Of a DNA stretch of 64,000 nucleotides, positions 1-64,000 are shown piece after piece. Source of the DNA: the human T2T-CHM13v2.0 reference genome, Homo sapiens; the NCBI RefSeq assembly GCF_009914755.1, contig NC_060928.1; one strand, given 5' to 3'. The notes beneath the pieces are model-generated. The model ran no database searches. It was not told the DNA's origin and saw only the letters and a list, made by a program, of their open reading frames with translations. The number at the start of each line of letters is the position of its first letter. Positions within the stretch are counted from its first letter, which is position 1. The position numbers and the translations under genes were made by a program.

Positions 1-1620
1 CATTAGCGTCAGATGTTCCTGAGAGGCTTCTGAAATACTTGTTCCTTCAGTTTTGCAATATCTGAAGAAAATATCCAGTATGACCTTTTAAATGTTAACT
101 TTTTCCCACTCATGCTGTTTCATTTCACAGATGAGGAGTAACGTAAAAAGAAGTACTCCAGTCACATTGTAACTGTACTCTATATTCTAACTACTCAATC
201 TCCTAGCCACATTAGTTTGTTGGAGATCTCGTTGATGTGATTAGCTAGTTCGTGGTCTATTTGGGAACTCCACAGCAAAGTAGAATTTTCTACCAATTAT
301 TTACATAGTCTGCTGTTTGTACTGTGTAATGCAAAGCAACTCCAGCTACTGTGGCAGCAGCTGTGACAACCTTTTGAAGAATTTTAGTAACAATATGCAC
401 AGGAGAGGCTTCCCAAGGACAGGAAAGCTTTACGGGTATCCATACTCCTCCTCGGGCTCTTACCACTAAAATAGAATGATCAGTATTATACAAGGAAGAA
501 TTAACACAAGAAAACTACATTCCTGACAAGTTACATGATTAGGGAGATCAAGTTTTAAAAAACCCACTCTACCAACAGGAAAGGCAGATGGACACAACTC
601 TGTATCCAGACTGAATCGTTAGGCCAATTCTACTATGTAATTAGGATTATATTGGGCTGGCTTAATAAATTTCCCTTCCCAAATCTTTTTTTCAGTGCCA
701 TTAAGATTTTCCATAATTCCTTACGTTTAGCTCCTACAGCAGGCCATATCATTTGGGGTTGCGGTACCACTATACCATATGCCCAAATAATAGGAACCCT
801 TGCTGTACTTAGTGTCCACCATCAGATTATTTTTTGTTTAGATGCAGAGTGACCACTACCTGCAGATTGAGAGGTGGGGCCTCATAGATGCCCCTTTAGG
901 GGACCAATCAATAACTCCATATGAATCATTATGCAACACCTCTGCCTGCGTTATGATATGATCGTCTGAAATGCCTTCATTTTTTCTGACCATGTCCAAT
1001 CCACTTTACAGATAGGTTTTTGAGGGTGGTAAACCTTGGCTACAGGAGCATAATCATTGTAATAAATACTAAGATTGGAAAGCATATGTAAGTGCCGCAG
1101 AGATACGTTCAGGCACTATCCCCAGCCAAGATTGGGAGGTAAACGCCCATTGGCTTTCCCTAAGCAAATAGGTAAATGCTCAAATCCCAACAAGATATTC
1201 ATAATTGTTCCCTCCTCTTGGGGGTGAGACACGCCTCTATCTGTAGAAAAAGGCATCCAAAAGCTATCATTAGTGTATACCTCCACTAGGGGCTCTAAGC
1301 ATATTACTGGCCGTAGAAGTGGTAGAAAAGGAATATATGCCCAATATAATTGTTTCAGCAGTTACTGGGGCGGGGTGGGGGGAGTACTCATAGCAATGGT
1401 GAGCACAGCCGTCATAGCTATTATTAGATTATTCATCATAGCTGGTCATTCCGCCACCTTCAGATTTTCTTCTCCCATCTTTGTCAACTTCTTGATGTGG
1501 CCCCAGGTGAGTGGCTGTGCCTGGTGAGTGTTGCTTGCCGGGACTGGTGTCTTCCTTACTGTCAGTCTCGACATGGCTGCAATCGGGGGTCCTCGGGTTC
1601 CTTCCCAAATCTCTTCCTCA
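1..1620 (-). pseudogene. env: HML-3 env (SU and start of TM), disrupted
   Basis: Signal region PLTWGHIKKLTKMGEENL near 1460-1515. ORF 290..493 reads [45 protein letters not shown], matching the HERV-K SU/TM junction. Confidence 0.88.
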
Positions 1621-1689
1621 GCATCTGGCTCATAAGGTTTCAGGTACCTTGATGGTATCCAAGTTGGCTGCTGGTTTTGGCCTGGAGAA

Positions 1690-3390
1690 ACACAAGCATA
1701 ACCTCTACCCCATGTTATTTTACCTATTTCCTAACTTTGTTATCAGACCTCTCCACCAAACCAGTCGTCTTGCTTCTGTCTTTGCCACTGGTTTCTATAG
1801 ATGTTGTTCAGCTGCTTGATAGCATCTGGCCTTTAGGCAGGCTCAGAAAATTTAAAGTCAATAATGCTAGATTCAATTGTATACTTGGAGTTCCATAGTC
1901 ACTGTTACCCGCAACCCCACACTTTGTTTTTGTAATTGCTGTTTTAGGGAGAGATTGATTCTACAATGGCTTGTCCTTATGAATTATGGGATGCCAGTAA
2001 TGTGTTTAATATTCCATATAGAGAAAAATGTAGCTAGAGCTTGGCTAGTATAGCCTGGGGCATTATCTGTTTTAACTGAAGTTGGAATGTCTATGATTGT
2101 GTGAAGCCTTGTAAAAGATGCCACTTAATACAGGCAGAAGATTCTCCTGTTTGACAGGTAGCTTAAAGTGAGAAAATGTGTCTACATATACATGCACGTA
2201 AGCTAGTCTCCCAAAAGTTGGGAACATATATGACAGCCATTGGCCAAAGAGAATTAGGTTCCAATCCTCGAGGATTAACTCCTGTAAAAGATGAGGAATG
2301 CACCATTTGGCAAGTTGCGCATTGCTGGATGATAGCTTTAGCTTCTTTCCAGGTAATGCTGTATCTGCATTTGAGACCAGAGGCATTAAGGGTTAAATTG
2401 TGAAAGTGTATAGTATTAGATAATGCAGTAGCAACTAGGCGATAAGTCATTTGATTGCCTGTGGTCAAAGGTCCTGGAAGGGAAGTGTATGAGCTCTAAT
2501 TGAGTAATGTAAAAAGGGTGCATTCTATTCCTAACTGCCGTTTGCAGTTGGGTGAATAAAGTAATCAGTTGTTCATCTGTATGAAATTGTGTAACTTAGC
2601 ATTTTCAATTGGGTGGAGTGAACCACATGTGAACAATTAGAAATTACATTGACAGGCATCTCAAGCACTCAGCACCTCAATTACAGCTACAAGCTCTGCT
2701 TTTTGAGCTGAAGTATAGGGTGTCTGAAAATTTTTTAATCCAGAATGAGAAGCTTTACCATTACTAGACCCATCTGTAAAAATATATTTAGCACCTTCAA
2801 TTGGTTTAAATTGTTCTAGGGAGACTCCAATTTTAAAAATTGAAATAATTTTCAAAGTGATCAGGAACACCTACAAAATCAGCTAAATGGGTTTACCAAG
2901 TAAGACTATTTATAAAGGCCTGTTGTATTTGTGCCTTTGTAAGAGGGACAATTTTTCCAAGGTCATATCCATGCAATTTAACAATTCAAGTTCTCCCATT
3001 TCCTATCAGTAGCAGTTTGATCCAAATAAGGAGTTAAGGACTGCGAATTAGTATGTGGAAGAAAAAGCCATTCTAAGTCTTGGTCTTGGACAATAACACC
3101 AGTAGGTGAATGCTGAGTTGGAAAAATCTAAAGTCTTTTTTTGATCTATTCCGTTTGATCTTTATGTATTTGCTTCTCAATTAGCTGTAACTCTGTCTCA
3201 GCCTCCTGTAATTGCCAAGGGCTAGCGAGACTAGGATCCTCCTCTAACGATAGAAAACAGGCTACTCATGGCACAGGTAGGAATGCCTAGAGCAGGTCAT
3301 ATCCAATTAATGTCTCCTAGTAATTTTTGAAAGTCAATGTCTTCAATTCCAACGTATGGTTACTTTCTGTGGCACTATTGTAGTGTCATT
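1690..3390 (-). pseudogene. pol: HML-3 pol remnant (RT thumb/connection, RNase H, integrase)
   Basis: DFQKLLGDINWI near 3300-3335. RNase [12 protein letters not shown]...[11 protein letters not shown] in ORF 2661..2870. Integrase FGRLAYVHVYVDTFSHF in ORF 2072..2386. Confidence 0.9.
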
Positions 3391-3640
3391 TACTAAGCCG
3401 TGCTATACGCTCTCCTGGCTCTGCTTTCCAGGGAACAGAAGTAGATACAATAACTTGAATTTCTCCATTGTAATCTGACTCCTGTTTGTACTTGTATTCC
3501 TTTTAAACTTAAACTAGACCTACCTAGAAGTAATTCTGCTGTCCCCGCAGGCAGGGGTCCGCTCCTGTTGACACCTTTTGCGGGGGTTCCCCAGGCAGAA
3601 GGCTCGCAGCTTTAGTGCAGCATAACTCTGGCGGGTACTG
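3391..3640 (-). pseudogene. pro: HML-3 pro N-terminal dUTPase remnant
   Basis: LCCTKAASLLPGEPPQKVSTG, LLGRSSLSLKGIQVQTG and VPWKAEPGERIA are betaretroviral dUTPase motifs. The protease itself is missing. Confidence 0.85.
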
Positions 3641-5210
3641 GCTGTGGCAGGGGACAGGCATTGTACAGGGGTGAGAGAGTGGCCTGAGCCAGGAATGACC
3701 CGGTTTGGAACGGAGCCTGGGACGGACCCTCATGGCACTTCCCGAAATCGGGTTCTCATCTTTATCAAACTTAGTGACGCTGATTAGCCCAGTGTTTTCG
3801 TTTTTTGCATTTTGGACATATTCCAGCCTCAGCAGTTGTTTGCCCCCCAACTGGGAGCCTGACTTGCTGATTTTTTTTTTCCCCTGCATTCTTTTTTAGT
3901 ATTACCATGCTTCCCACAGTTAAAACAAGCTCCAGGAAATGAATATTTCCTTTACCCACTTTCAGTCCTGCCATTGCCTTGGGCTAGCAGGATAACTTTA
4001 TGCAGATTACCTCTGATACTATCACAAGCTTTAATATACTCGACCAAATGTGCTTTTCCTTTAATAAGTGGCAGAGCAACTTGGCACTCAGGATTGGCAT
4101 TGTCAAAAGCAATAACTGCAACACCATATCCTGAGCGGCAGAATCTGCAATCGCCTTTTTAAGAGACTCCTGTAACCTGGCTATAAAATCTACATATGGT
4201 TCTTTTGGTCCTTGTCTCACAGCACTAAAAGATGGGTATTCTGAAGTGATTTTCCCCAGCTCTAATACGTACTCCTAAGGTGCTCTATGGCATCATCCTG
4301 CATGACCACTTGCACATCTAAACCAGCCCAGCCGCTAATCCCCAAAAGTTGGCCTGCAGTTACATAAATTTGAGGTTGGGCCTGGGCATTGTGAGCAGCC
4401 TGAATGGAAGCTTCCTCTGCCCACCAAGTTTTAAGCTGTAAGAATTGAACATGAGTCAGACAAGCTCGAGTAAGAGCCTCCCAGTCAGTAGGGATCACCT
4501 GACTGGAGACGAGAACATTTAACAGTCTTATTACAAAAGGAAAACCTGGTCCATACTGATTAATAGCTTGTTTAAATTCTTTAACTTAAAAGGAAGAGGC
4601 TCACATGTAACCATAATATTCCCGTTGATCAGGTGGTTGTATTGTCATGGCAACTGCCAAGCATCCATATCACCCTCTCATCTAGCTTGCTGGATTCCTG
4701 CCTGAATGTAACTGAGAGCGGTCACTTGAGGCGCTGCTCAGTCACAGGGGCAACTACTTTTCACCCAGTGTCCTCCAGAAGAGATCCGGAGGGGGTCAGG
4801 CCACTTTCTTCAAAATGGGTGGGGAGGTGTAGAGGGTTAGGGATAAACATCTCCCTCTGCCGCTTTAGCTGGCAAGCAAACTTGCTCTGTCATCTTCGGT
4901 TACTTCATTGTACTCTCCTTCCTGACTTTTTTTTCTCATCTGTGTGGAAAGGTTCCAAGGTGGAATGAACCAGAGCCCACACTGACTAGTTTACAGGAAT
5001 ATCCTCAGCACCATCCTTATATGCCTTTTTCAGTGCACTGCCTACCTTTTCCCAGACCTCTACATTCAGAGTTCCTTGGTCCAGAAACCAGGGGCAATAT
5101 TTCTCTACCACACTACAAAGCTGCATAAGTCATCTGGTGCTACCCTTCACTCCTCCTTTTGAGATGCCAAAGCAGACTCAAGCCTCATGTCTGCTCACCC
5201 CTTGTCCCAT
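3640..5210 (-). pseudogene. gag: HML-3 gag, disrupted
   Basis: ATG GGA CAA (MGQ, myristoylation start) at 5210. Matrix CPWFLDQGTLNVEVWEKVG near 5040-5100. Capsid PTDWEALTRACLTHVQFLQLKTWW, MHR and CCHC knuckle. Confidence 0.9.
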
Positions 5211-5338
5211 TGTTATCCTGATGCTTCTGAGCTCCCCTTCTTACCCACAGGGATTGCTTAAAGAGTACTCGGGTGTGCTCCAGTGTAGTTCCACGTACTC
5301 CAGCCGTTGCTCCAGTGACCTTTCGACTGGAATTCGAG

Positions 5339-5356
5339 CCCCCCCATTGGGCACTG
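5339..5356 (-). promoter_or_regulatory. Degenerate tRNA-Lys primer binding site
   Basis: Minus strand CAGTGCCCAATGGGGGGG immediately after the LTR resembles the Lys PBS TGGCGCCCAACGTGGGGC. Confidence 0.7.
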
Positions 5357-5358
5357 CT

Positions 5359-5828
5359 TGCCAAGACCAGCTCGGTTGTGGAGACCCTAAACCAATGGTG
5401 CTAGAGGAATTCGACTCAGGAATTAGGGTATAAAGTGGAAATCGGGGGGCTGACAGCCTTGAGAGCTAAGAGCCATGAACAGAGACTGGCCCACACATTT
5501 GACAAAGTCAGTGATAAGCATAGTTTTTATAGATAAGCTAAAAGCATTCCTTAGGGGAAACAAAGCATTCTTAGCAAGGAGCAAAGAAACAGGTGCTGGC
5601 TTGATCATCTGCAGCAAAAGCATATTAAGGCACAGGCAGCTCCTGCTATTGTTAGTGGTTTGACCAGTTTTCCCTCTCTGGGCAGGCCAGGTTTTCCTAG
5701 CCCCCTGCTCCAGTAAACCTCTAGCAGTGTGTGTGATAGCCATCATGATCGTGTCATGTTGCTGCAGAAATCCTGTTTGTGGTGTTTCTTTAAGGCCTGT
5801 TTGACAGGGTTAGGGCTTGCTACCAGCA
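5359..5828 (-). mobile_element. 5' LTR, MER9 (MER9B-like)
   Basis: TG...CA termini. Minus strand begins TGCTGGTAGCAAGCCC...ATTTCTGCAGCAACATGACACGATCATGATGGCTATC, matching remembered MER9. The sequence right of 5828 is homologous to 17045 and 32195, so the provirus inserted into the repeat array. Confidence 0.85.
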
Positions 5829-7974
5829 CCAGACAGCACAGGGGCCAGTGTGAGATTAGTATGGCTGGGTGAGAAGTCCTGCCAAGGTGCTGGCAGATCT
5901 GGGCTGTTGCCAGATGGACTTGAGAGCTCTATTCTGGGAGTAGATTTTTGGCAGGCTTTTTCCAGACTCGAGAGGGCCCTCAGCTGATATATGGTCTCAG
6001 TAATGGATCAGGCTCTACCATGTACCATGAAAGTGTCTTATGACCAATTTAGATCTCAACTTCATAGAAAGCTGTCACAATGAACTGAATGTTATGCATA
6101 GTCCAGGAGAGGGATTTTTTTCTTGGTCATAAAATGGTTTGTTAGGGAATCATGACTCTTCCCTTGTTATCTAAGTCCTTCAACTTCATACCTGTTACCC
6201 ATCTTTGCCTATGACTTAAACTGAAGTGTAGTAAAGTTATGTGCTTTTTGTGGGAGAAGTCCTAGGCCTCTCGCTTAGTGGTGTCCAGGTAGCTACTTAA
6301 CCCCAAAGAACAATCTAGACAATAAGACCTAGACTGGAAACAAAGTTCTCTGTGAATCTCGTCTGAGATGGGTAATGTGGTGTGAGACCTTATGGCTGAC
6401 AGGTGTCATAGCCACAGCTGGTTAGTGTCAGTTACTATAGACCCAGAGGTGCGTCTGTGCTTGTGAAATACTTGGAGGGAATTAGTATGTTATTGGCTTC
6501 TTTGGTTCCCTTATGCCTTTATGTCATGTCCCTTAATGGAAGAATTTGTACAGCTTTTCCTGTATTAAAAATAAAGAACTGGTACCATAACCTCTCCACA
6601 CTTAAGGCCCTTCAGGGACTAAGACTTAGGCCTGACCTCAGCTCAGTGGCTGAGCTCATGGATCCCAGCCATGTTGAGCTGCAGAGCTAATCATACAATG
6701 CTAGAAGCACACTTGAAGGTGATGCCCCATCACCAGGTGGCTGGGTCCCAAGAGTCATCTTTTGCTGAGAAGCATGTGATGGGAACCTCTGGGCTCTGGG
6801 GTGTCTTCTGGGGCAAGCAAGCATTGGGGCAGGAGGTACAATAGTGCCTGAGCTACCCTTTGTACCTTCCTCTGCTCTGAGGATCCTAGACAACTTTGAT
6901 CCATGTCAATGTCTTACTCGGCTTTTCAGACAACTGTGACCTTGGATTGCCCACTTGGCTATCTGTTATAAGTAAAACTTCCAGTTTGTTCTTTCACTCA
7001 ATGTTTTGAAATCATTCATAAACTTCTCGGCTGTCATAAGGCCTCAGGAATCATTGGTATGAAGAATCTGGTTAGAGGGTATCGGAGGATACAATGACAT
7101 AGCCATCAGAATGGAACCTTTAAGTCTGAATTCTTGGCCCTTAGAGCTTGGGCTATAATGTAGCCAGAGATCCATCTCATCCAAAACCAGACTGAAACAC
7201 ACGTTTCCGTATACCACTGTGTCTGAGTGATGCACGTAGGATCGTTTTCTGCTGGGATATGCACTGAACTGACAGCCTTGGTGAACATGAGGGAGATGGA
7301 TGGACCCCAGTCTCTGCACCTAGTAGACCTTTGGTAGTTTACCCTGTTTCATGAAATGTGTGGCTCAAGTCTAGTTCTTTCACTGTGTGCGCACTGACAC
7401 TGCCAGAAAAGGCCTTGGAACTTTCTGTAGTGGTTGTGTTGTTCATACTGCCTTGTGTGCAGGGGAGACTTAAGATAGAGGAAGGCTGCTCCCTGACTAA
7501 AATGAGGTGCATTCTCAGAGGGGGCACCTGAATTTCCACTGGATGTGGGAAGCATTCCTCACCCAAGTCATACTACTTTAGATCCTGGATCTGAGTCATC
7601 CAGGACCCAACACTTGAGGTCTGGCCCCAGTGGAAAGTGATGGGAAGGTTGGTCCTCCAATCACAGCTTGCAAGATGTCCCTATGTGATCACTGTACCAG
7701 TGTCCATAGTAGGAGATGTTAACACCCAAACTCATTGTTGCCTATAAAGGTCTGTATATAGACACTAAGGTAAATGCGTAGCAAAAGGGCCAGGTGTTAG
7801 GGAACAGGTAGAAGGTGGACCAGTTTTCAGCTCCAGAAAACAAGCTTCAACAGTCATAGTGAGGCATCTGCATGCTTCAACCTGAATCTGAAATACTTAA
7901 CACACTACCTATGCTCCCAGAATCCTCCAAAGTCCTCAAATTACATGTATATCTGATATCCACCTATCAACTAG

Positions 7975-8170
7975 ATCAGAAACTTTTAATTGGATGCTCC
8001 TGTGTAATTTTTCATTGGGGGCTGTCCTGTGCACTGTAGGACTTTAAGCAGCACAATTTACCTTTTCTGCTAGGTGCCCATAGCAATTCCCTTCAACCCC
8101 TGAAGGGCTGTGATCAACATCTAGACACTTCTCCCTGGAAAGCAGAATTGACCACTTGAATACCAAACTA
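7975..8170. mobile_element. MER20 (hAT DNA transposon) inside GON4L-like copy A
   Basis: GGGGGCTGTCCTGTGCACTGTAGGA..AGCAGCA core of MER20. Present at the equivalent site in copies B and C. Confidence 0.75.
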
Positions 8171-11100
8171 GGTTTCAAGAAACCATCAGCTGTCTTGGGG
8201 GTAGTTCTCTCATGGCACCTTCATGTGTGGCGTACTAGATGCCTGTGTGTTTTCTCCATGATCTTTGAAAGGTTGGAGAACAGACAATCTGAAGCTGAGC
8301 AATGCCTTCACAGAGGTGAACTCTCCCAGAAAAAATCCCTTCAAGGTAGCCCCTAGGGCCTGGGATTTAATTGTTCTCCTTTCCACGTTGAAGAATCCTC
8401 TTCACCACCGAGTCTTGGGATGCAATTGGCAGGTCCATACCCTTATGTCTTCACTGTGCGTGTCTTGGCATGGGCTTCTTACTGCTCAAGAGTCTGAATT
8501 GGACCATTCCCATAGGCCCCTCCACATATGTGTGTTCCAGATCTCTTCTATGTAATCATCTTCCGGGGTCTGACCAGTCAGTCCATTTTCCAATATATGG
8601 GACCAATTATCCTCAAAACCCTTATCCCATAAGAGATGATCAAGTTTATTGATTGAACTTCTGCCAAATGAGAGGATTTTTTCCCCAATGACAACTTAGG
8701 GTGCCCTCAGAGAAGCTTTAGTGTCACAACAGTTTATACTCGGCTATCACATATTGAGTCAATCATCCATAAACCAGAACTTTACCCTTTGCCAGTTGGT
8801 CATAGAGATCTCCCCTTGAGGCTACAGGTATGAGCTGACAGATGCAGGTACTACAGAGCTTGAGGATGATGGGAGTCTGAGCCACCTAGTTTTGTGATTT
8901 AAATGTAGTTCTATGTTCATTTCCCTCACAACCTTGTTGTGCCCATGGAGCTTCTGCCTCTATGGGTCTCACAACACCCAGATCAGGGTAGGAAGTTCTA
9001 AAAGTTACTAGCTGTCTCATGGCCAAGAGCTCAGTCTCCAAGGCTCAGTAACATGGTTGAAGCTGACCTGAAGGGTAATCAGCCTTCTACTGGCAGACTT
9101 AGGCTAGAATCTTAATGGTCTGTAGTATTTTTACTAAAGTATCCCCCAGACGCCTCCCATGACCACCTCCTACCATGGATCTAATATGAGAGGCAAGGCA
9201 ACATTTTAGAAGGCCAAGATTAGCTGCAGGGCCCTCATCTGATGAGGCCTCTTCAAAACTTATACCTGTTGGAGCCCACTAAAAATGGCTTACAGTAGTT
9301 AAGTGTGATACGCTGTATCAAATTCACAAACTCCTATTTTGAAAGTACACTGTTTATGGTAGGAGATAATCCAAGGAGCTGTCCTTGAATTTGAAAGTTG
9401 GAAGTGATGTCCCTGCATGCCCTAGATACTTAAGCATTGTGGATAGACCCCTGAGTCTTGGTAGGCTTTCCCCTCCCTCTGGCACTTGGGTATGCTCCAG
9501 AGCACTGGCTGCTTCCTGATGGGTCTGACTTATGCCAATAATAAAGTGGCCCAGCGAGATCTCCTGTGAGATGCCAGCAAAACCAAGACTTCAGCCTATG
9601 ACATTAGGACAGACCAGTAGAGTTAATACCGCCTGAGGACAAGACAATGTGTATTCCTGGCCTTACCATGAATAAGCCAAACTGAACTTGGAACCTCAAT
9701 GAGGAGGATTTGAAAGAATGGATTTTCCAGAATGGCGGTAAGCCTCCACTCAATGTCAGAAGTGGTGGTTACTAGCAAAGATACCATAATGTTGCATGAT
9801 GGCTATGCTAAATCAAATATATGGTAGTTCACTGTCATGTGACATGGAACTCCAAAAGATGAAAACCACAAGAATCTAGTCAAATGCAGAATGACATCCT
9901 TTCCATATGTGGCAGACAAGTGAACAGGTGCTGAAAAGGTTCCCTGTTGAGTTACCTTGAACCAGTGGTCAAAGTGAGGTTTTCTGTGCTGGAAAACCTT
10001 CGTAGCCTCGTGTCCAATTCAAAACACTTGTGTTTTGAGGATGAAACTAGGACCATTCTAACTTTTCAGAAAACATGGGCCCTTGAAGCAGCAGTTTCCA
10101 TACTTTGGGGACAGATTCTTTATTGGCGTAGGTACATTACTGACCTAAAAATCCAGATTTCTCTAGGAGAACTGGGGTCCTAGTCCAGGATGCTGGCTAC
10201 ATGGACGGGCAAGGAGTGACCACTAGCTTGCCCTTAACCATTGCCCAGGCATGGGAGATCCCAGCAGCAACCATGCCGGGAGTGTCTGCAATGGCAGCTG
10301 GACTCTTGTTGGGCTTCTGATGCCTCATGAACTATGCCACATCCATCCACCTTCACTTGTGAGAATTGTCTTCCCAGAAGTAGGTCTTTCTGCCAGTTTG
10401 CATGTTTATTGCTAGAATGTACAAGGTTAAGCCAGTGAGGGAGGGGGAAAAGGTAGAGGCTGGGAGGGAAAACTCACCAGTTTAGGTTGTGAGCCACCTC
10501 CACTCAAGGTGTACCCAATTCTTTAGTGTTGGAAATACATTTAGCTTCTGGTGGCAAAACTCACTGGATTTCTCCTTAACTTCTATGCTCTTCGTTGTCT
10601 GACACTTGCACTGCCCCAATATGATCTGTAGGAATATTTGAGTATCCAAAAAGATCTTTAAGGTATCAAGTCACCTACTCTCACATGTACAGAAGATGTG
10701 CCAGATGCCAGTCTTCAATTCTTGTTTAAATTGGTCTTTCGGAACTCTAAAGTCAACTGCCACTGAAGTCATTGACTAAAGCTTCATTCACACATCTGTC
10801 CTTCCTCAGACTGGTAGATAAGATGGAGATGAACTTCACAAAGACCTTACTGGGAGGATTGTATGATGCTTGGGAGATTCAGAATGCAGACAGCATGTCC
10901 TCCTAATCAAGAAGCAGCCCTCACCCTTTTCAGAGCTGACAGACTACTGAGGCTCTCTGAAAAGCAGTTTAGTTTGCCATAAGGAGCCAGTCAATTTAAT
11001 CCCTGGATGGTGTGAATTGCTCTGGGTGGCAGGAATGCTTTCCTGAACCTTTCTGATAAGGTCCTTGTGTTTTCTGACTATTCTCTAATCTGTAACTTTG

Positions 11101-11740
11101 GAAATGTGGATGGTGTCAATGTTTACAAAGGGGTGAGGCTGTATTCAAAACTTGCTGTCTCCTTAGTTGACCAGATCTTCATTGCTTAATACCTGAAAGG
11201 GATCCCGATACTAGAAGAAAGCATGGAAGGACTTTTTATGGGGGCTTGTGAATTGCCCTCTTAGGGGAAGACAGGAACCTTTCTGCCAGTCTCATTAAAC
11301 CCTAATCACAGATCCTGGGTAGGCTGAGCTAGATGAAGAAACAGGACCTGTGGTATTTGGGGCAGGTGTTCATCGTATTCCTGCCAGCAGAGATGTGCTC
11401 TTGACATAAGTCAGTCACATGTCCTTGAGTCCTAGTCAGCACTGGGGAGCCAGTGTAGGGTGGATATAGATATGCAAGTGGTCTTACGTGGGTCCTGGCT
11501 GATCTAGAGTGGGGACTGAAATGTAGGGTGTACCTGCAGAATTGGATCCTTCATAGGCTTTTGGTAGAACCAGAGAGGGAAGAGAGGACAGCCTTTGGTG
11601 AACCTGTCAATGGGGAAGACTGAGTAACTGAGAACTGTTGATAGTTACTTGGTTATATGTAGTCTATGACCAAAAGAAACATCCGAGGCTTTATGATCTT
11701 CAAATAGTTTGAATACTTGGCCACACCACAGTGATAGGGC

Positions 11741-11759
11741 TTTTTTTTTTTTTTTTTTT
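11741..11759 (+). repeat. Poly(T) run, 19 nt
   Basis: Direct observation. Paralogous sites (about 23047, 35596, 40866) have only short T runs before GGTCA. Confidence 0.95.
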
Positions 11760-13249
11760 GGTCATAGAATGACTTAAACAGAATCATGATGCTTTGAATT
11801 CTCTACATATTTCATCTTTTTCTATACTTGAGTGATCTTGGCCCTATGGCTTAAACCTAAGAATCCTTGTTTGGTTCCCTTTTCAGGGAAAAGGTCTAGG
11901 CCTCCTGTTCACTGGTGTCCTGGTGGCAACCTGAAACAATGTTAAGGGATGTAGACTGGGGAACAGACCCCCATCAACCTTGTTGCAGGGACTGTGATAA
12001 TGCACCGTGAGCCCTGTGGTTGGAATATACTGTTGCTGTGGTCAGTTATGGTTTCTGGGTACCCAGGGGGTAATTTTGGGCTTATACACCACTGACAGGG
12101 AATTGACACACTTGTGGTTTTTTTCCTTATCTCTTATGCCTTGTCCCTTGATACAGGAAGAAGCCATAGAAATTCCTCTTAAAGAATTGGCACTAATTTC
12201 TCAGCATGCAGAGATCCTTCAGGGACCAAGGTTCTCATGGTTGTCTGCTTCGTGATTGAAATGGATGTAGAACCCAGCTGTTTTGAGAGCCACTCATGAT
12301 GGTAGCAGTGCCCATACCGCTAACACTCCACTCCCAGCTGGCTGGATATCAAGTCTTTCAGCTTCCTCTGACAGTGGACGTGTGTGATGGAAGCCTCTGG
12401 GCTCCAGAGTGTCTGCTGGAGTAATCACTGGGGCAGTCAGAACAATAGTCCCTGAGCTCCTCTTATCTTCCTCTGCTCATGTTGAGGTCTCTAGATGACT
12501 TCACTTCCTGTCAATGTCCTCCCCTTCTTAAACCACCATGAGTTTGCATATTCCACTTCTATCTACCAAGAACACTCTAGTTCATGACTGTCACTCAAGG
12601 AGGCTTTCAAATTAAGATTCACAAGTTTGCTGGCTCTGAAGTTTAGAGGCAATCTTTAGCTTGAAGAATCCCACCTGAAGGTTTAGGGAGATATAAGGAC
12701 AGACATAAATGTAAACAACGGCAAGTAGATAGGAGTGTCTAGAACTTGGAGAGCTGAGATAATCTTGTAGAGGGTGCACTTCATTCCAACTGACTTCAAG
12801 ACTACATCCTCTATATGCATCACAGGAACTGAGTCACACAAAAGAGTGCAGTTATGGAATTTGTGCTGTGGAAGCTGATGCCCTGGAGAATGAGAAATGG
12901 ACCTCAGCTTGGCACTGACATGGAGATGTCTGTCACTTGATCTTTTTGTTGCCTAAAACTTGTGACTCAAACCATCTGTGTGGATGCACAATGCCAGGAA
13001 AGGTCTAGGTAATTCAGTAGCTGTGTATCTCACTGGCTTTAGAGTGTATTTAAGATAGGCTTCTCCCTTACTCATGATTCTCACCTTCAAAGAGCAACTC
13101 AGTTTGCATGACGAGGTAGTCAGAGTTGATTCGATCCCTGCGTGGTATGAACTGCTCCAGGCAGGAATGCTTTCCTGAACTCTTCTGATGAGGTCCTTGT
13201 GTTGCATCACTGTTCTCTAACCTGTATGAAAGTGTGCATATGTGGATAT

Positions 13250-13650
13250 TTTTCCTAAATGAGCTCCTGGGGCTTCTGAATGTCCTGGCTCTTTCCCTGT
13301 CACTGAGGGACATCCTTTTCACCATTATGTCCTGGGACTTGCACCACAGCCATCGTGTCCTCATGCAGTACAGCCCAGTGTGGGTCTGAATGGCCTTCAT
13401 GGCTTCACATAGGCTACATGTGACCCAATAGCATCCTATCTGGGCAGAGGCTGAGAGAACCTGCCCTCATGCTGCTTGTGGGTGAGTCCTTGGAGGACTG
13501 ATTGCTGGCTCCTTTGCTGTGACCCCTGCACTGCTGACAGCTGTCCCAGCGTGTATTTGACTTCAACATGTCAAACTGACTATACGTTAGTTCCACTTAC
13601 TAACATAGCACTTTCTGTTAAGACTTTACATTTCTAGAGCCTTCTAGGAA
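13250..13650 (-). pseudogene. MARK/SMOK-like kinase N-lobe fragment (duplicate of 27255-27660)
   Basis: GAGCTCCTGGGGCTTCTGA...CACAGCCATCGTGTCCTCATG...TACAGCCCAG...TCTGAATGG aligns by eye to 27267-27410. Confidence 0.6.
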
Positions 13651-21143: not shown

Positions 21144-21144
<1 letters not shown>

Positions 21145-53675: not shown

Positions 53676-53677
53676 AA

Positions 53678-54101: not shown

Positions 54102-54799
54102 GAACCTCGACTAGATGAGATGTGGAGAACTTTCTTTAGATTTGCCTTGGTGCCTTAAGCAGCTGTATGTTTCTAGAAGTCCTCCTGATTCAGAGATAGC
54201 TTTTGTTGGCTCCACTTTACCTTCAACCCACCCAAGGTAGAAAATCAGGAGAAGGTACATTACCTGTTAGCTGAAGGCAGTTTGGGGAAGAGACCAGCTC
54301 CTTTTAAATAAGCATAGCAGTCCCTCACTGAAGCTGAACTCGTTGTAACCCTTACCCCCAGAACATTGCAGACTAGCATTCAGAAATGTATTCATTATCC
54401 CTCCTTGGATTTGAGCTGCCTCTTAAATTAAACACCTATTAAACTGCATAGGGATGCCTGATCCCTAAGCAGGGATATACAAGTTCATGCATAAAGTCTG
54501 CATTGATATCTAAACTTAGTGGGGGCTGCAGAAGACTCTTCCTGGACTTACCTCAAAGGGTCATGTCTTTATTCAAGTTGAATGATGAAGAATCATCTGT
54601 GTGCTCTTTCACTTGGCTACAGTCATGCAATTTTATTCTGCCCCATAGGTTAGTTAAGTGGAATTGATGAGTGATCTCCAGGTTTATGCTCTTAAAAAGG
54701 AGGTAACTTTTCTTCCCTCTGTCATCCTGATGGGACCAACAGCCCCCCGCCGAACTATCTGGGAATGTTAGAACAAAAGGGGAGGAGTATGACTTTAAG

Positions 54800-55910
54800 G
54801 TTTTTCTTTAAATTACTTCAAGTTTTGGGGTACATGTGCAGAAAGTGTAGGTTTGTTACATAGGTATACACATGCCATGGTGGTTTGCTGCACCCATCAA
54901 CCCATCTACATGAGGTGTTTCTCCTAATGCTATCCCTCCCCTAGCCCCCCACCCCACAACAGACCCCAGTGTGTGATGTTCCCTTCCCTGTATCCATGTG
55001 TTCTTTGTTCAACTCCCACTTATGAGTGAGAACATGCAGTGTTTGTTTTTCTGTTCTTGTGTTTGTTTGCTGAGAATGACGGTTTCAGCTTCATCCGTGT
55101 CCCTGCAAAGGACACGAACTCATGTTTTTACAGCTGCATAGTATTCCATGATGTATATGTGCCACATTTTCTTTAGCCTATCATTGATGGACTTTTGGGT
55201 TGGTTCCAAGTCTTTGCTACTGTGAACAGTGCTGCGATAAACGTACGTGTGCATGTGTCTTTATAGAATGATTTATAATCCTTTGGGTATATACCCAGTA
55301 ATGGGATTGCTGGGTCAAATGGTATTCCCGGTTCTAGATCCTTGAGGAATTGCTACACTGTCTTCTGCAATGGTTGAACTAATTTATACTCCCACCAACA
55401 GTATAAAAGCGTTCCTATTTCTCCACATCCTCGCCAGCATCTGTTGTCTCTTGACTTTTTAATGATGGCCACTCTAACTGGTGTGAGATGGTATTTCATT
55501 GTGGTTTTGATTTGCATTTCTCTAATGACCCAGTGATGAGCTTTTTTTTTCATGTTTGTTGGCTGCATAAATGTCTTTTGAGAAGTGTTCACATCCTTTG
55601 CCCACTTTTTGATGGGGTTGTTTTTCTTGTAAACTTAAGTTCTTTGTGGATTCTGGATATTATCTCTTTGTCAGATGAATAGATTGCAAAAATTTTCCCC
55701 CATTCTGTATGTTTCCTGTTCACTCTGATGGTAGTTTCTTTTGCTGTGCAGAAGCTCTTTAGTTTAATTAGATCCCACTTGTCAATTTGGGCATTTGTTG
55801 CCATTGCTTTTGGTGTTTTAGTCATGCAGTCTTTGCCCATGCCTATGTCCTTAATGGTATTGCCTAGGATTCCTTAAACAAAAATTAACTCAAGATGGAT
55901 GAAAGACTTT
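54800..55910 (-). mobile_element. 5'-truncated L1PA (L1PA7/8-like) with short 5' inversion
   Basis: ORF2 end [35 protein letters not shown]. 55880-55909 AAAAATTAACTCAAGATGGATGAAAGACTT is sense-strand upstream L1 sequence. Confidence 0.92.
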
Positions 55911-56916
55911 GATTCTTGATGGCTCGTTCTATAAGCATCCAGTGGCATGACACATCCAGCAAAGGGATACTTCTCCGTTCATTGCCCTGATCTACCAATG
56001 AAGGAAGAAAATGGTCCTGGAATTGAAAAGGGGGTAGGTAACTTGGGTCTGTAACTCCCTAGATGGAAGCCATCTCAGTGGGTATGCATGATAGTCCACC
56101 TAGAGTACAATCCACATGTGCTCAGTTGGAGTTCTTAGACATCTACCACCCAGAAGGAAAGGAAGGTGACTCAGCCTTACCTGCAAGGGAGGTTTCTAGA
56201 CTTCCATAGATGAGACATTAGGGGGCATCTGATCTTTCCTGTGATGCTGAAGTTCTCATATCTTTTAACTAAGATCTAGCCACTGAGCCAAGTTTCTTAG
56301 AAGGCATATCTTTTTCTTACCATAAATGATAGGAAGTGTCAAGGCAAAGTGTGGTGGGACAAGATGATGTCCCTTTGCTACATTGAGTGGAATATACGCA
56401 GAGGTTTTAATGTTCCCCTTGTGCATGAATATCTCAATTTCTGCATTTTTGGGTAGAAAGATGTTTATTTCATACAGATGAAATATGATTTCCACGTTAT
56501 TACATATGATACTTGTGTTAAACTTTGGGTTTGTGAAAAGATGTTACAAAAACCATAAAGTGATGCTCCTGTGATGCTTAGAAGTGAATTGGTTTCTGAT
56601 AGACAATGGAGGAGTTCAGAGAACCACTCTGATGATAGAAAATGGCATCACTCCATATATCATGTGTTTCTGAGGGTGGGCCTTAGTCTTAGTAACAACC
56701 TGTGGTAGCAGTTTGATATCACTAAGTACTCATGGACTAACGGATAAGCACAGACTGACTAGAAAGTCTCAATACTAAGCAATGAGGTGTCTGCTGCACT
56801 AGTGATCCTTTAATCCACGAAATACTGGAGCCTCTTCTCCCTGGGACATGCTATGAAGATGTAGGTGCTTGACAAAGAGCCCAATTTATGGAGGGGATTT
56901 CAGCTGTTCACTCTGA

Positions 56917-58739: not shown

Positions 58740-61700
58740 TTATGTGATATTTTTACCCACACTTGGATTTGTTTTGAACACTTCTAGTTTATCTCCCTGT
58801 GTATTATGTTCTAGAAGACTGGAGTTGTCAGTCCTGAGAAGGAATGGCGGAGAGGAGACTGCATTCCTATAATGTAAGGGTAGAAGAGTTGCATGATTCA
58901 GACTGAGAAAGTTGATTGCCCTACGGGTCAGTAAGCTAGGGACATAAGTTCTATACACTAAGTTACGAGGTTCAGGCAAAGTGACATCCAGCCTTCAGGA
59001 TCTTGTTCCCTGACTCTACTGCTGTGAGTGGTCAATGGGATGTCCTGCTGTACTTGGGAAGAAAATCTAGTGCTCCTTTGCAGAGAACCGTGCACAGTTT
59101 CTGGTGCCTGTCGGTGTGTAGAGAACATCTTCTAGTCTATAACACAATATACTGTGTGGCTTGTTTTCCCCCCAACCATTTTTGAAAGTGACTCTCCAAT
59201 GGGATGTGTTCCCTCTCCCCATCTTAGGTTTTAAGGACGACCTGAATCTTGACCTCAACTAGTTGCACAACTAAGTAGTTACTGCCAGTGATGAGCCTCA
59301 TTTTGTTTTCCATTTTGATGTAGCTGCTCTGCCCCTCTGGTTATAGATGCGCTGTTCTGTGTCGAAAAGAACTGACACCATACCGATGTCTCATGAAGAT
59401 CACTCCCCTCAATAGGACATGGAAGATTTTGTTGATAGTCCAGGTGGCTGGCCCTAATGGCTGGATGCTCTAGAATTCCTTCCTGTCAGAGACATCTTGT
59501 GATACCACCACCCACCCTGCCTCCCAAACTGAACGAAAAATAACATAGATGAAAAGAGGAGTCTTTTTAGAAGGCCGTATTTGTGAAGAGAACTGTTCTG
59601 TCTTCACGCATACAGCAAACCCCCACTAAAGTGAAAAATGAATGGTGTATTAGTTCATTTTCACACTGCTATAAAGAAATGCCTGAGAATGGATAATTTA
59701 TAAAAGAAAGATTAATTACAGTTCAGCATGGCTGGGGAGGCCTCAGGAAACTTAGAATCATGGTGGAAGGAGAAGCAAAGAACCACCTTCACCTGGTGGC
59801 AGGAGAGAGAAGCATGAGGAGAGAAGGGGAAGAGTCTCTTAAAAAACCATCAGATCTCATGAGAACTCATTATCGGGAGAATAGCATGAGGGAAACCACC
59901 CCCATGATCCAATCGCCTCCCAGCAAGTCTTGCCCTCAACACCTGGGGATTAAAATTCAAGATGAGATTTTGGTGGAGACACAGCCAAACCATATCATGT
60001 GGTACATTTTTGAAATCATAGCAGAGTAGTCTAAGTGAATCCTTAAAATTCAGCCATGACTGCAAGAAGAATGATGGGTGGGTGCTGTCCTAAGATGCCT
60101 CTTTGCTCATCTGGCCTCTACTGCCTTGTACAGGGGAGAGGGTGAAGAGGGTCACTGACCTGTGAAGTGGGCAGCAGAGAAGAAGCCAGTATTTCTGAAT
60201 TTTCCACTAACGGGGTCACACTTCCTTGTAGGTTAATTCAATTAAATAAGATGTGTCTGCTATATTGGATAAGCTATGGCCACATTACTTCTTGATGAAG
60301 TATATGCAGAAGTCACGTCTGACCTTTCAGGGTCGTGCCTTTAAATGGGTGAGGCTTCCCCTCCCTGTTAATTTTATAAGGTGTAAGCTTAAGTTAAAAT
60401 TGACCTTCACGATCTTGTTCCAGATGTACTGCTTATGACTGCTCAACTTAAATACTTTTGTACACTGAAGATGAAGAGTGAATTGTCTTTTGTAGGAAAC
60501 TCTGTACGTTTCCTGGTTCATGTCAGTGGGTAGAGGTCATCCTCTATTTTGAAAAGTTAATTTCTGCTGGAACCGTTTTTCCAGAGCATAACTCCAATGA
60601 GACTTCTTATCTTCCTCCATCTTAGATTGTTGGAGGATCTGAACCTTGATCCCTAGTAGGGGGGAAATTGACCATCTGTCTAGCAACACCAGAGTGGAAT
60701 GAATGCTGAGGTCTTAGTTTTCTTTCTGTAAATATTTTAATATCATTTAATACACTGACACTAATGAGTAATAGTCTTCACTGTCTTACTGTTTTGGGAA
60801 AAGACCTAAACTTCTCACTCCTCCAAAAGACTAAATTGCTCATGTGCAGGTGATACTGACAGCTTGTACAATTTTGAAAGGACCATAGCTGGTGTTTAAA
60901 AAAAAATGGTAACTTTAATTCTGCCTTCTATATTTCAACTTCAGCTTCATGGATTATAGTGACCCATGAGAACTCCTTCCCCTTGGGGTCTTCTGAGGCC
61001 TGAATCAGAAGGAAATGAGATGTATTTGAAATCATCTGTGTGGCCTTGTAGATCTAATCAGAGGTGTGGGGTTGAACTGGACACTGCCCTGACCCACCAA
61101 GGCTTCCAAGGCTGTCTCCCATGCCCACAGAAGTCTATGTGGGTTTTCTGCTTCTCATTCTGTGAACCTGTGTAGTAGGTTGCCCTTTAGCTTGTGTGTC
61201 TCGTGGTCTTATTGTGTTGAAATGAGTTCATTCCTGTCAAAGTATTTCAGGTTGTCCAGGGAGGTTTTGTACCTTGCTGATGCTCTGGAAGAAATTTCTG
61301 CTTCAATTTGCCCTGCAAATATCCATAAGACGATTTAGGTGAATTTAGGCCATGCAGGTTTTCTTCCCATAGCTTTCACACACTGGGTTCTCAGATGTGG
61401 ACTTTGTAGTCTGCTCTCCACATTTCTGTGAGTGTGCTGAGCTTCAAATCACTGATGAGCTGGACTCGGGAATATGGAGAAAGGGAGAGGCTATGCTGCT
61501 GTGTAGAAGCTCAAAACTACTCCAGAGGGGTTTTAGGGCTCTTATTCATGTATCTCAATGGACTGAGATTGGTCCTAATCCATGGCTTCCCAAACCCATT
61601 GTACCTGCTCTAGACCTTGCCTTGATCCATCAATATTTAGTTACAAGGGCCTCTCTTCTATACTCTGGGTGGGTCAGCAGCTTTGTAGAGGCAGCTTTGA

Positions 61701-62800: not shown

Positions 62801-62849
62801 GGGCTGAGGATGTTGAATGCATGCAATGGTCTTGGTCAATGCAGTTGGC

Positions 62850-64000
62850 TCCTCAGGAAAAACTGGTGTTTTTCAGAGGCCTTTTTGGGTCAGCTACCAG
62901 CCTCTTCATTGCTTTCGGGCAGTTCTTGTGTATCTTGCTAAGATCTAGGAATGGGGGGATACCCCCAGCCTGTCAAGAAGATAATCTGGTCGGGGTTGTT
63001 GATGTGGGAGAAAGGAAGTGCCCCTCCCATCAGCTCATAAAATGAGATGCCATAGGCATTGACATGGGACTGGAAGCTGAGTGGGTTTTTACCCTTCGTT
63101 CAGATCGCCTCTGGGGCCATTGACTGTGGGTTTCCTTAATCTGCTGAGAATCACTTCGGTGTGACTTCACTGTTGCCAAACCAAAATGTCTCTAGTTCAC
63201 ACCATGAGGCCTTCATGGAGAAATATGTTGGATTTTATGTCTCTGTGGATGATCTTCTCTGCATGCCAACTAGTTCCTTCCCTGAGCTGTCTACCAGGCA
63301 ATGTCAATTAGCTGGAATGTCTGAAACTTGGTCTCCTGGACATGCAGGTAGCTGTAGAGGCTGCCTTCACAGCACTGGGTCACAATGCCAGGTTGTCCTG
63401 TGTCATGAACCCCAACAAGAGCAGAATGTCCACATGTCCTACACTGCTCAGGACAGCCACCTCATCTCTGAAGGCCTGGAACTGCTCTGGGGGTCAGGTT
63501 GACAACCTTGGAGGATCTTGACTGCATTGCCTCTGCCACTTAACCTGAAACAGTTCTGATAGAGCCTGACCTGATCTAAGCAGAGCGTGCCACTATATGG
63601 GCTTGTATTTCCCCAGAAGAACATGGATCTGTCCATGAGGTCTAACGTTTTTTTCTCCTGGATCCCAGAGCTCAGTGACTTTCCTTGTGTGCTGGCACAG
63701 GGGTTTGGGTTGTGGACCAGCTCACTGGGCTGAGGTGGCTGGAACCACTGGGGTAGGGCTGTGAAGGGAAGGCAGATTGACTGTGACTTGGTGTTGCATC
63801 CTCAATCATCCTCCTGTCCACAGGTGTGGTGATGCTGATCACGTGGACATGAAGCGTAGATGTTGACCCCTCTCTCTGGGAGAGGAAACCTTCAGAGGGG
63901 CTGAAGGAATTGAATATGAAAGCATGAGGTGTAGAATGTCTGTTGGGAGCTAACAGGCATCCAGGAAAGACTGTCACGTATGATACATTGTCAAAGAAGG
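62850..64000 (-). pseudogene. RAF1P1: Processed RAF1 pseudogene (CR2 through kinase domain), continues past the right edge; probably RAF1P1
   Basis: [34 protein letters not shown] (RAF1 S259 region), [67 protein letters not shown]. Intronless, with stops and frameshifts. RAF1 identity is strong; the locus name is from memory. Confidence 0.9.

What the first reader, a model, noticed from the sequence alone, without database searches (positions are those of the whole stretch)
1..64000. Candidate germline (pachytene piRNA-type) locus assembled from antisense pseudogenes and retroelements
Seen: the provirus, the L1s, the orientable LTRs, the RAF1 retrocopy, all GON4L-like copies and all but one kinase remnant lie on the minus strand, and there is no intact gene. 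Established: mammalian pachytene piRNA clusters are long single-strand transcripts, and pseudogene-antisense segments in them can yield piRNAs against parent mRNAs. Inference: a + strand precursor here would give piRNAs antisense to RAF1, HML-3, L1 and possibly GON4L/YY1AP1 or MARK transcripts. That would also explain why non-coding copies kept being amplified.
Basis: partly seen in the sequence, partly recalled or inferred. Interest (0 to 1): 0.85.

Follow-up and report, generated by a model that had tools for sequence, protein, structure and literature searches.

The report
Known WDR1–ZNF518B germline piRNA cluster

Summary
The window lies 51.6-115.6 kb from the WDR1 promoter, inside the published WDR1-ZNF518B piRNA cluster. 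In human oocytes this is a ~320 kb, + strand, one-directional cluster that gives 34% of uniquely mapped piRNAs and holds antisense L1 and ERV insertions. In testis, a pachytene piRNA gene, 4-p16-5577 (hg19 chr4:10118745-10191565, +), runs divergently from the WDR1 promoter and should cover window 1 to about 21.4 kb.

Confirmed on the minus strand:
- a broken betaretrovirus-like provirus
- 4 of 4 L1 3' fragments
- RAF1P1
- DPPA2/4-like copies
- an unannotated MX1-like fragment

Not found: GON4L-like copies, or kinase remnants other than RAF1P1.

All 23 internal repeats are old direct duplications, so much of the shared orientation is inherited by copying. G>C and T>A skews flip at the WDR1 promoter and stay positive across the window, an independent sign of long-term + strand germline transcription.

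Regulation of RAF1 by these piRNAs is possible in sequence terms at a few sites, but it has not been shown.

Verdict: core interpretation right, already known, low novelty.

The parts
1..64000 (+). Internal stretch of the precursor transcription unit of the WDR1-ZNF518B piRNA cluster. It lies 51.6-115.6 kb downstream of the shared WDR1 promoter.
   Evidence: The published cluster is hg19 chr4:10115601-10436958, + strand. The hub table puts the WDR1 transcription start at window -51623. TA skew is positive in 21 of 21 8-kb bins and GC skew in 20 of 21 from that start onward.
1..21400 (+). Approximate 3' third of the testis pachytene piRNA gene 4-p16-5577. The end point is estimated, not aligned.
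   Evidence: Yu et al. 2021, Supplementary Data 4: chr4:10118745-10191565, +, one exon of 72820 nt, 'Pachytene'. I anchored it on the WDR1 promoter. AATAAA at 21083 and an A15 run at 21099-21113 lie near the estimated end.
1..5828 (-). Broken betaretrovirus-like (class II) provirus that continues to window -681. The order on the minus strand is LTR, gag, dUTPase, RNase H, integrase, env, LTR. There are many stops and no reverse-transcriptase hit.
   Evidence: Pfam on ORFs. The LTR pair -681..-208 and 5359-5828 has K2P 0.129.
5829..11631 (.). Copy 1 of an old, locally duplicated unit. Direct copies lie at 17042-22957 (68.7% identity) and 37971-40774 (70%).
   Evidence: Self-blastn. The own-genome search finds copies only on chr4 at 10.144-10.21 Mb. 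K2P 0.27.
17042..22957 (.). Copy 2 of the same unit.
37971..40900 (.). Partial copy of the same unit.
15694..18086 (-). Duplicated segment that carries a decayed DPPA2/4-like pseudogene copy. It is paired with 30843-33218.
   Evidence: Self-blastn at 67.2% identity. The ORF 16118-16423 resembles the 30991-31458 ORF by eye.
30991..31458 (-). DPPA2/4-like open frame of 156 aa, inside the annotated DPPA4 pseudogene LOC100129344.
   Evidence: Pfam DCR (E 6e-5) and Dppa2_A (E 5e-4), both below the curated cut-offs. Own-genome hits on chr3 at 112.05 Mb are 56-60% identical.
37116..37978 (-). Third decayed DPPA2/4-like copy.
   Evidence: Self-blastn: 69% identity to 31386-32221 and 68% to 16226-16957.
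13860..14171 (-). Old L1 3'-end fragment that is part of the duplicated unit.
   Evidence: tblastn. Aligns to 28382-28709.
28241..29269 (-). L1 3' fragment.
   Evidence: tblastn. It is 84.5% identical to 54820-55841.
54797..55911 (-). L1 3' fragment.
   Evidence: Copies at 84-89% identity are spread across the genome.
43894..44412 (-). Dispersed LTR-like repeat (MaLR type).
   Evidence: Many copies at 80-83% identity. The orientation was judged by eye against a recalled consensus.
48519..48962 (-). Dispersed LTR-like repeat (MaLR type).
   Evidence: Copies at about 83% identity. The orientation was judged by eye.
59640..60030 (-). MaLR-type LTR.
   Evidence: The + strand ORF 59697-60029 reads the reverse complement of the recalled start of the LTR. 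No tool tested this.
46214..46621 (-). MX1-like (interferon-induced dynamin-like GTPase) pseudogene fragment covering MX1 residues 2-142. It is not in the gene table.
   Evidence: phmmer against PDB sequences, E 2.6e-13. It is related to the downstream pseudogenes, which match chr21 exon by exon.
62889..64000 (-). RAF1P1, a processed RAF1 pseudogene that continues past the window end.

Best explanation
The window is an internal 64 kb of the known one-directional piRNA cluster that fills the gap between WDR1 and ZNF518B.

How it most likely works:
- RNA polymerase II starts in the CpG island shared head-to-head with WDR1 (window about -51.5k) and reads the + strand for tens to hundreds of kilobases.
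- The long non-coding precursor is cut into piRNAs. In adult testis, annotated production covers the first ~73 kb, which reaches window ~21.4k, and is classed as pachytene. In oocytes the whole ~320 kb is the most productive cluster.
- The ERV provirus, the L1 fragments, the LTRs and the RAF1, MX1-like and DPPA2/4-like pseudogenes all lie on the minus strand, so the piRNAs made over them are antisense to those elements.

Two causes together explain the shared orientation. Old direct duplications copy orientation along with sequence. Insertions that put their own polyadenylation and splice signals on the transcribed strand are likely to be lost, or antisense ones kept.

Shown: the position inside the published cluster, the element strands, the duplication structure and the strand-composition asymmetry. 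Taken from papers, not tested here: piRNA production and its strand. Inferred: the causes of the orientation bias.
For: Papers (passages read):
- Nat Commun 2026, PMC13111593. The most productive human oocyte cluster spans ~320 kb between WDR1 and ZNF518B, gives 34.05% of uniquely mapped piRNAs, is one-directional and holds abundant antisense L1 and ERV insertions. Fig. 8a gives chr4:10115601-10436958, + strand; reads were mapped to hg19.
- Genome Biol 2024, PMC10964541. piC-ZNF518B-WDR1 is among the top five syntenic oocyte clusters in mammals and evolves fast.
- Hamster, PMC8437802. A female-specific cluster lies between Wdr1 and Znf518b.
- Marmoset and human testis, PMC4105748 and PMC5648030. 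A pachytene cluster runs divergently from the WDR1 promoter.
- Supplement of PMC7782496. 4-p16-5577, + strand, 'Pachytene'.

Sequence:
- A CpG island lies at -52.5k..-51.2k and holds WDR1 exon 1.
- GC and TA skews are -0.051 and -0.073 in the WDR1 part. From the promoter to +116k, TA skew is positive in 21 of 21 8-kb bins and GC skew in 20 of 21.
- Element strands.
- Direct duplications: 23 of 23 alignments in the window and 88 of 93 in 184 kb.
Against: - I could map no small-RNA or RNA-seq data here, so piRNA output from this exact window rests on published coordinates and figure legends. I did not see the figures or per-base tracks.
- The hg19 to T2T conversion for the 3' end of 4-p16-5577 rests on the WDR1 anchor, on recalled hg19 coordinates of WDR1 and on assumed collinearity.
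- The part of the rhesus testis list that I read shows no intergenic cluster on chr5 below 163 Mb. The testis cluster may therefore not be shared by all primates. That rhesus WDR1 lies on chr5 is recalled, not checked.
- MYB-site matches at the promoter are not enriched: 3 in 1.4 kb against 2.9 per kb in the background.
- Two L1 fragments just outside the window, at 72.2k and 116.4k, are on the + strand.
- Replication-linked skew could add to the strand asymmetry.
Confidence: 0.9

Rival explanations
1. The shared minus orientation is only a by-product of old tandem (direct) duplication of a unit that already held minus-strand elements. It says nothing about function. On this reading the piRNA output is incidental to a long read-through transcript from the WDR1 CpG island.
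For: All 23 of 23 internal alignments are direct, as are 88 of 93 in 184 kb. In total 38,266 of 64,000 window bases lie in local alignments. The DPPA-like, old-L1 and MX1-like pieces recur as parts of duplicated segments. A primate-wide study sees pseudogenes in piRNA clusters as largely a by-product.
Against: Insertions younger than the duplications and independent of them are also minus: the provirus, a second provirus of the family at 104.6-111.4k, the L1s at 28.2k and 54.8k, and RAF1P1. The oocyte paper reports antisense enrichment of ERVs across the top clusters against the genomic background.
Confidence: 0.3
2. The reversed pseudogenes are working parts. piRNAs made from the + strand over RAF1P1, and over the MX1-like and DPPA-like copies, guide cleavage of the parent mRNAs in germ cells. 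This use favoured keeping and amplifying the copies.
For: RAF1P1 is antisense to the precursor and shares 8 exact stretches of 15 nt or more with RAF1 exons, the longest 30 nt. Of 986 28-nt windows, 73 have 2 or fewer mismatches. Pseudogene-directed piRNA regulation has been proposed in marmoset and mouse (titles).
Against: - Mean identity to RAF1 is only 79.8%.
- The DPPA-like frame is 40-60% identical at protein level to its relatives, and the MX1-like piece is heavily decayed. Extended pairing to those parents is therefore unlikely.
- RAF1P1 lies about 41 kb beyond the annotated end of the testis gene.
- The primate study found no significant reverse bias (P = 0.09), no better retention of reversed copies and weak conservation of targets.
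Confidence: 0.08
3. The window is ordinary intergenic DNA. The strand asymmetry comes from replication direction rather than from transcription.
For: Skew jumps at CpG-island promoters are also known at replication origins (established knowledge, not tested here).
Against: Several independent papers place a piRNA cluster here. The skew stays positive for at least 168 kb and switches exactly at the WDR1 promoter.
Confidence: 0.03

Closest known systems
Human oocyte piRNA cluster between WDR1 and ZNF518B (piC-ZNF518B-WDR1; hg19 chr4:10115601-10436958, + strand)
   Same: This is the same locus. The window lies 51.6-115.6 kb from WDR1, inside the ~320 kb span. The strand is the same, and the element strands found here fit the published antisense L1 and ERV insertions.
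   Different: Nothing differs in kind. Three things seen here were not in the passages I read: the mosaic of old direct duplications, the near-absence of Alu in the first ~175 kb, and the RAF1, MX1-like and DPPA-like pseudogene content.
Human testis pachytene piRNA gene 4-p16-5577 (Ozata et al. 2020 annotation, as listed by Yu et al. 2021)
   Same: Same promoter side and same strand. It overlaps window 1 to about 21.4k.
   Different: It covers only about the first third of the window. RAF1P1, the MX1-like piece and two of the three DPPA-like copies lie beyond its annotated end.
Drosophila flamenco, a one-strand cluster filled with antisense retroelement fragments
   Same: One promoter, one strand, and ERV-type insertions mostly antisense. 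The oocyte paper draws this comparison itself.
   Different: It is a different animal with different PIWI proteins. Here interspersed repeats make up only a small share of the window and most of the sequence is old, locally duplicated DNA.
Mammalian piRNA clusters with reversed processed pseudogenes (marmoset and mouse examples)
   Same: Processed pseudogenes lie opposite to cluster transcription.
   Different: Targeting of the parent genes has not been shown here, and the copies are old and diverged.

Membership tests
One-directional mammalian piRNA cluster (WDR1-ZNF518B) | The window lies inside the published coordinates of the cluster. | tested here: met
   The hub table puts the WDR1 start at -51623. 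The published cluster runs ~320 kb from WDR1 to ZNF518B on the + strand.
One-directional mammalian piRNA cluster (WDR1-ZNF518B) | Dense, uniquely mapping 24-32 nt (oocyte: also ~20 nt) small RNAs from one strand, with a 5' U bias and PIWI binding. | not testable with these tools
   Known only from the papers. No read data could be mapped.
One-directional mammalian piRNA cluster (WDR1-ZNF518B) | Long single-strand precursor from a defined promoter. | tested here: met
   This is indirect evidence. A CpG island is shared with WDR1 exon 1. The skew sign switches at that promoter and stays positive in 21 of 21 bins for TA and 20 of 21 for GC.
One-directional mammalian piRNA cluster (WDR1-ZNF518B) | Retroelement insertions mostly antisense to the precursor. 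| tested here: met
   The provirus and 4 of 4 L1 3' loci in the window are minus. In the 184 kb examined, 6 L1 loci are minus and 2 are plus, and 2 of 2 proviruses are minus.
Pachytene class of piRNA genes | A-MYB (MYBL1) binding at the promoter and onset at pachytene. | tested here: inconclusive
   There are 3 MYB-site matches in 1.4 kb, against 2.9 per kb in the background. The class label comes from the annotation. ChIP data cannot be tested here.
Pachytene class of piRNA genes | The window lies inside the annotated testis transcript. | tested here: inconclusive
   Only about 1-21.4k falls inside 4-p16-5577, by anchoring on WDR1. The end point was not aligned.
Gene-regulating pseudogene-derived piRNA source | A reversed pseudogene with enough complementarity to the parent mRNA. 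| tested here: inconclusive
   RAF1P1 has 8 exact runs of 15 nt or more, and 73 of 986 28-mers have 2 or fewer mismatches, at a mean identity of 79.8%. The DPPA-like and MX1-like copies are much more diverged.
Gene-regulating pseudogene-derived piRNA source | piRNA-guided cleavage of the parent mRNA. | not testable with these tools
   It needs degradome or 5'-monophosphate RNA data.
Betaretrovirus-like (class II, HERV-K supergroup) provirus | gag, pro with dUTPase, pol and env in order, between two LTRs. | tested here: met
   Pfam Gag_p24, zf-CCHC_5, dUTPase, RNase_H, Integrase_Zn, IN_DBD_C and HERV-K_env_2, in order on the minus strand. LTR pair. There is no reverse-transcriptase hit.
HML-3 subgroup | Closest to HML-3 reference pol or LTR sequences. 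| not tested
GON4L/YY1AP1-derived copies | Similarity to the parent gene. | tested here: not met
   Seven own-genome DNA searches gave no exon-wise match to such a parent, and Pfam found none. Limits: stretches 11.6-23.1k and 28.2-41k were covered only through their paralogues, and two searches were swamped by repeats.
MARK-type or other kinase remnants besides RAF1P1 | Kinase-domain similarity or motifs. | tested here: not met
   No Pkinase hit in 311 ORFs of 60 aa or more. The HRDxK motif occurs only in RAF1P1 plus one chance hit. Very decayed remnants are not excluded.

The most novel reading that the evidence does not exclude
The 5' ~175 kb of this cluster is a nearly Alu-free mosaic of old direct duplications. 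On this reading, local duplication rather than transposon trapping is how the locus grew. Strong selection or chromatin state keeps Alu out. A few piRNAs made over reversed pseudogenes, RAF1P1 above all with its 8 exact stretches of 15-30 nt, slice the parent mRNA in oocytes or spermatocytes.
Probability: 0.1. Interest if true: 0.6.

Novelty: already known. Interest (0 to 1): 0.25.

Why it matters
The locus itself matters: in the published data it is the largest single source of piRNAs in human oocytes, and it is also a testis pachytene piRNA gene. As a finding it adds no new kind of system.

- The cluster can be recognised from sequence alone by the skew switch at the WDR1 promoter.
- Much of the 'antisense pseudogene' pattern is inherited through old direct duplications.
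- The window holds an unannotated MX1-like fragment.
- The first ~175 kb has almost no Alu.

These points could guide a closer study of how mammalian piRNA clusters grow.

Tried and rejected
- Six-frame read-through Pfam scans with X at stops failed because the references were too long to print. I did not repeat them. One short read-through reference did work for the MX1-like piece.
- The Rfam gathering scan of the window gave 0 matches.
- Ozata et al. 2020 (PMC6961462) is not held. Its annotation was seen only as relisted by Yu et al. 2021.
- A text search for '4-p16-5577' found 0 papers. The supplements of PMC11316121 had no occurrence. A search for recalled WDR1 coordinates gave only unrelated papers. 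'RAF1P1' occurs in 3 papers, none about piRNAs.
- Supplement reading was closed from then on. The cluster tables of Ha 2014, Gebert 2019, the 2024 oocyte paper and the 2026 oocyte paper (its Supplementary Data 9 and 10) were therefore not seen. They may hold per-cluster counts and pseudogene lists that bear on RAF1P1. The main texts of Ha 2014 and Pantano 2015 do not mention chr4, WDR1 or RAF1.
- Poly(A) hexamers are fewer on the + strand (36 against 64 in the window), but the T>A skew alone predicts about 36.5 to 63.5. This is no extra evidence.
- MYB-site counts at the promoter are not enriched.
- Strict kinase motif patterns found nothing, not even RAF1P1, which has lost one residue of the loop. 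The looser pattern found RAF1P1.
A smaller one was answered, so Alu content and skew between T2T 10.292 and 10.422 Mb were sampled at one 10-kb stretch only.


Full report
WHAT THE WINDOW IS. The window is T2T-CHM13 chr4:10168001-10232000. The hub table places the start of WDR1 (a minus-strand gene) at window -51623, and the own-genome search confirms the window's place. GC content is 41-48% throughout.

CHECK OF THE OBSERVATION

- Provirus. Pfam on all 311 stop-to-stop frames of 60 aa or more found a run of retroviral domains, all on the minus strand. They are HERV-K-type env (1119-1361), integrase (1449-2495), RNase H (2664-2870), dUTPase (3396-3611) and gag (3774-4585). Self-comparison of a 184 kb stretch around the window places the two LTRs at -681..-208 and 5359-5828, with K2P 0.129. 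This is a broken betaretrovirus-like provirus. It has many stops and no reverse-transcriptase hit. I could not test the subgroup name HML-3.
- Second provirus. Another provirus of the same family lies at 104588-111445, also minus, with different flanks.
- L1. A tblastn search with the window's own L1 piece found four L1 3'-end loci in the window, all minus. In the flanks, two more are minus (86.0k, 94.2k) and two are plus (72.2k, 116.4k). None lies between WDR1 and the window.
- RAF1P1. It is a processed copy. Eleven RAF1 exons from chr3 are joined without introns at 62889-64285 on the minus strand, with a mean identity of 79.8% over 1283 aligned bases.
- DPPA4 pseudogene. The annotated pseudogene holds a 156-aa frame with weak DPPA2/4 matches, below Pfam's cut-offs. 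Its relatives in the genome are 40-60% identical. Two more decayed copies lie at about 16.0-17.0k and 37.1-37.9k.
- LTR-like repeats. Three of them look minus to me, but only by eye against a recalled consensus.
- No intact gene. The longest frame is 174 aa.

WHAT WAS NOT FOUND

- No GON4L/YY1AP1-like copies turned up. Seven own-genome DNA searches returned local chr4 paralogues, dispersed repeats, RAF1 itself and one chrX match to the RAF1P1 query (probably a RAF paralogue), but no GON4L/YY1AP1- or MARK-type parent. Two of them were swamped by L1 or LTR copies.
- No kinase remnant turned up besides RAF1P1.
- Instead there is an MX1-like fragment at 46214-46621 on the minus strand, absent from the gene table (E 2.6e-13 to MX1 residues 2-142). 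The pseudogenes downstream of the window match a chr21 locus exon by exon and have small homologues in the window at 46467-46593 and 52125-52217. That is a guess.

IS THE SHARED ORIENTATION MEANINGFUL?

- All 23 internal repeat alignments of the window are direct, at 65-85% identity.
- In the 184 kb, 88 of 93 alignments are direct (61,047 aligned bases) and 5 are inverted (1,089 bases). The three inverted ones of 250 bp or more each pair an L1 end with the + strand L1 at 116.4k.
- The large repeat units occur only locally, from about T2T 10.144 to 10.337 Mb.
- In total 38,266 of 64,000 window bases lie in such alignments, and the unit copies differ by K2P 0.27-0.30, about twice the LTR divergence.
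- Copies of one old unit therefore share orientation automatically. Counting only events I judge independent leaves about nine, all minus: the provirus, three L1 events, two or three LTRs, RAF1P1, the MX1-like piece and the DPPA-like piece. That is suggestive (about 0.004, two-sided) but rests on my own judgement.

WHAT IT IS. The literature settles it.

- Yu et al. 2021 (PMC7782496, Supplementary Data 4, human hg19 sheet; rows seen) list a pachytene piRNA gene, 4-p16-5577, at chr4:10118745-10191565, + strand, as one exon of 72820 nt. This relists Ozata et al. 2020, which is not held.
- Hirano et al. 2014 (marmoset testis; passages) and Gainetdinov et al. 2017 (human testis; passage) describe a one-directional pachytene cluster divergent from the WDR1 promoter.
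- Hou et al. 2024 (passages) name piC-ZNF518B-WDR1 among the five top syntenic oocyte clusters of mammals. They note that it evolves faster than its flanks and that its piRNA sequences are not conserved.
- A hamster paper calls it a female-specific cluster (legend passage).
- The 2026 human oogenesis paper (PMC13111593; section 12 read whole) reports that the most productive cluster spans about 320 kb between WDR1 and ZNF518B. It gives 34.05% of uniquely mapped piRNAs, is one-directional and holds abundant antisense L1 and ERV insertions. Its Fig. 8a legend gives chr4:10115601-10436958, + strand, and reads were mapped to hg19.
- The window starts 51.6 kb from WDR1 and is 64 kb long, so it lies wholly inside this cluster whatever the exact coordinate shift.
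- Anchoring 4-p16-5577 on the WDR1 promoter puts its end near window 21.4k. This uses recalled hg19 coordinates of WDR1 and assumes no large indel. An AATAAA at 21083 and an A15 run at 21099-21113 lie nearby.

INDEPENDENT SEQUENCE EVIDENCE

- A CpG island at -52.5k..-51.2k holds WDR1 exon 1.
- In the WDR1 part, the GC and TA skews of the + strand are -0.051 and -0.073. From the promoter onward, TA skew is positive in 21 of 21 8-kb bins (0.026-0.129) and GC skew in 20 of 21, through the whole window to +116k. Excess G and T on the sense strand is the established mark of transcription in the germ line. It fits long-term + strand transcription well beyond the annotated testis gene.
- Near the ZNF518B end (T2T 10.422-10.432 Mb) the TA skew is negative.
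- Replication-linked skew may contribute.

HOW IT MOST LIKELY WORKS. A long + strand precursor starts in the shared CpG island and is processed into piRNAs. Over minus-strand elements these piRNAs are antisense. The orientation pattern comes from direct duplication plus loss of sense-oriented insertions, or retention of antisense ones. The last step is inferred.

PSEUDOGENE TARGETING

- RAF1P1 shares 8 exact stretches of 15 nt or more with RAF1 (the longest 30 nt), and 73 of 986 28-nt windows have 2 or fewer mismatches. A few piRNAs could therefore pair well.
- However, RAF1P1 lies outside the annotated testis gene.
- Gebert et al. 2019 (passages) found only a slight, non-significant reverse bias of pseudogenes in primate clusters (P = 0.09), no better retention and weak target conservation.
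- The DPPA-like and MX1-like copies are too decayed for extended pairing.

OPEN POINTS

- No read data could be mapped.
- The part of the rhesus testis list that I read has no chr5 intergenic entry below 163 Mb, so the testis cluster may not be shared by all primates.
- MYB sites are not enriched at the promoter.

VERDICT. The core interpretation is right and already published. The pachytene label holds for only about the first third of the window. The GON4L and MARK parts are unsupported, and the regulatory and amplification ideas remain speculation.

Noticed in passing
window -51600 to +124000 (T2T chr4:10116400-10292000): Almost no Alu. Three Alu motifs searched with mismatches gave 3 hits in the 184 kb examined: two belong to one Alu inside WDR1 at -55.2k, and one is a lone hit at -22.05k. 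None lies in the window. As a control, 20 kb at the ZNF518B end gave 44 hits, and two other 10-kb samples of the cluster gave 6 and 5. This is odd for DNA of 44-48% GC. The oocyte paper says only that Alu is 'not enriched' in the top clusters.
   Followed up: partly
window 46214-46621, minus strand: An MX1-like (interferon-induced GTPase) pseudogene fragment that is not in the gene table (PDB search, E 2.6e-13). The downstream pseudogenes LOC100422637 and LOC100422639 match a chr21 locus exon by exon and seem to belong to the same locally duplicated family, all on the minus strand.
   Followed up: partly
window -51089 to -49879: About three tandem copies of a ~400 bp unit (81-82% identical) sit just inside the start of the piRNA transcription unit, next to the WDR1 CpG island.
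   Followed up: no
window 104588-111445 (outside the window): A second provirus of the same family, also minus. Its LTRs differ by K2P 0.120, and it differs from the first provirus by 0.128, the same as each LTR pair. The flanks do not align. This points to two insertions of similar age rather than a duplication.
   Followed up: partly
window 20880-21720: AATAAA at 21083, then an A15 run and a (TA)n run, lie close to the estimated 3' end of the annotated testis piRNA gene.
   Followed up: no
window 34863-34903 and 11741-11759: Runs of 41 and 19 T on the + strand. These could be poly(A) tails of minus-strand retroposed pieces. In the 184 kb, four T runs and two A runs of 12 or more bases were seen.
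   Followed up: no
Yu et al. 2021 Supplementary Data 4, rhesus sheet: The first chr5 entry in the sorted list is at 163.4 Mb, so no intergenic rhesus testis cluster is listed near the expected WDR1 region, although marmoset and human have one. That rhesus WDR1 lies on chr5 is recalled, not checked.
   Followed up: no
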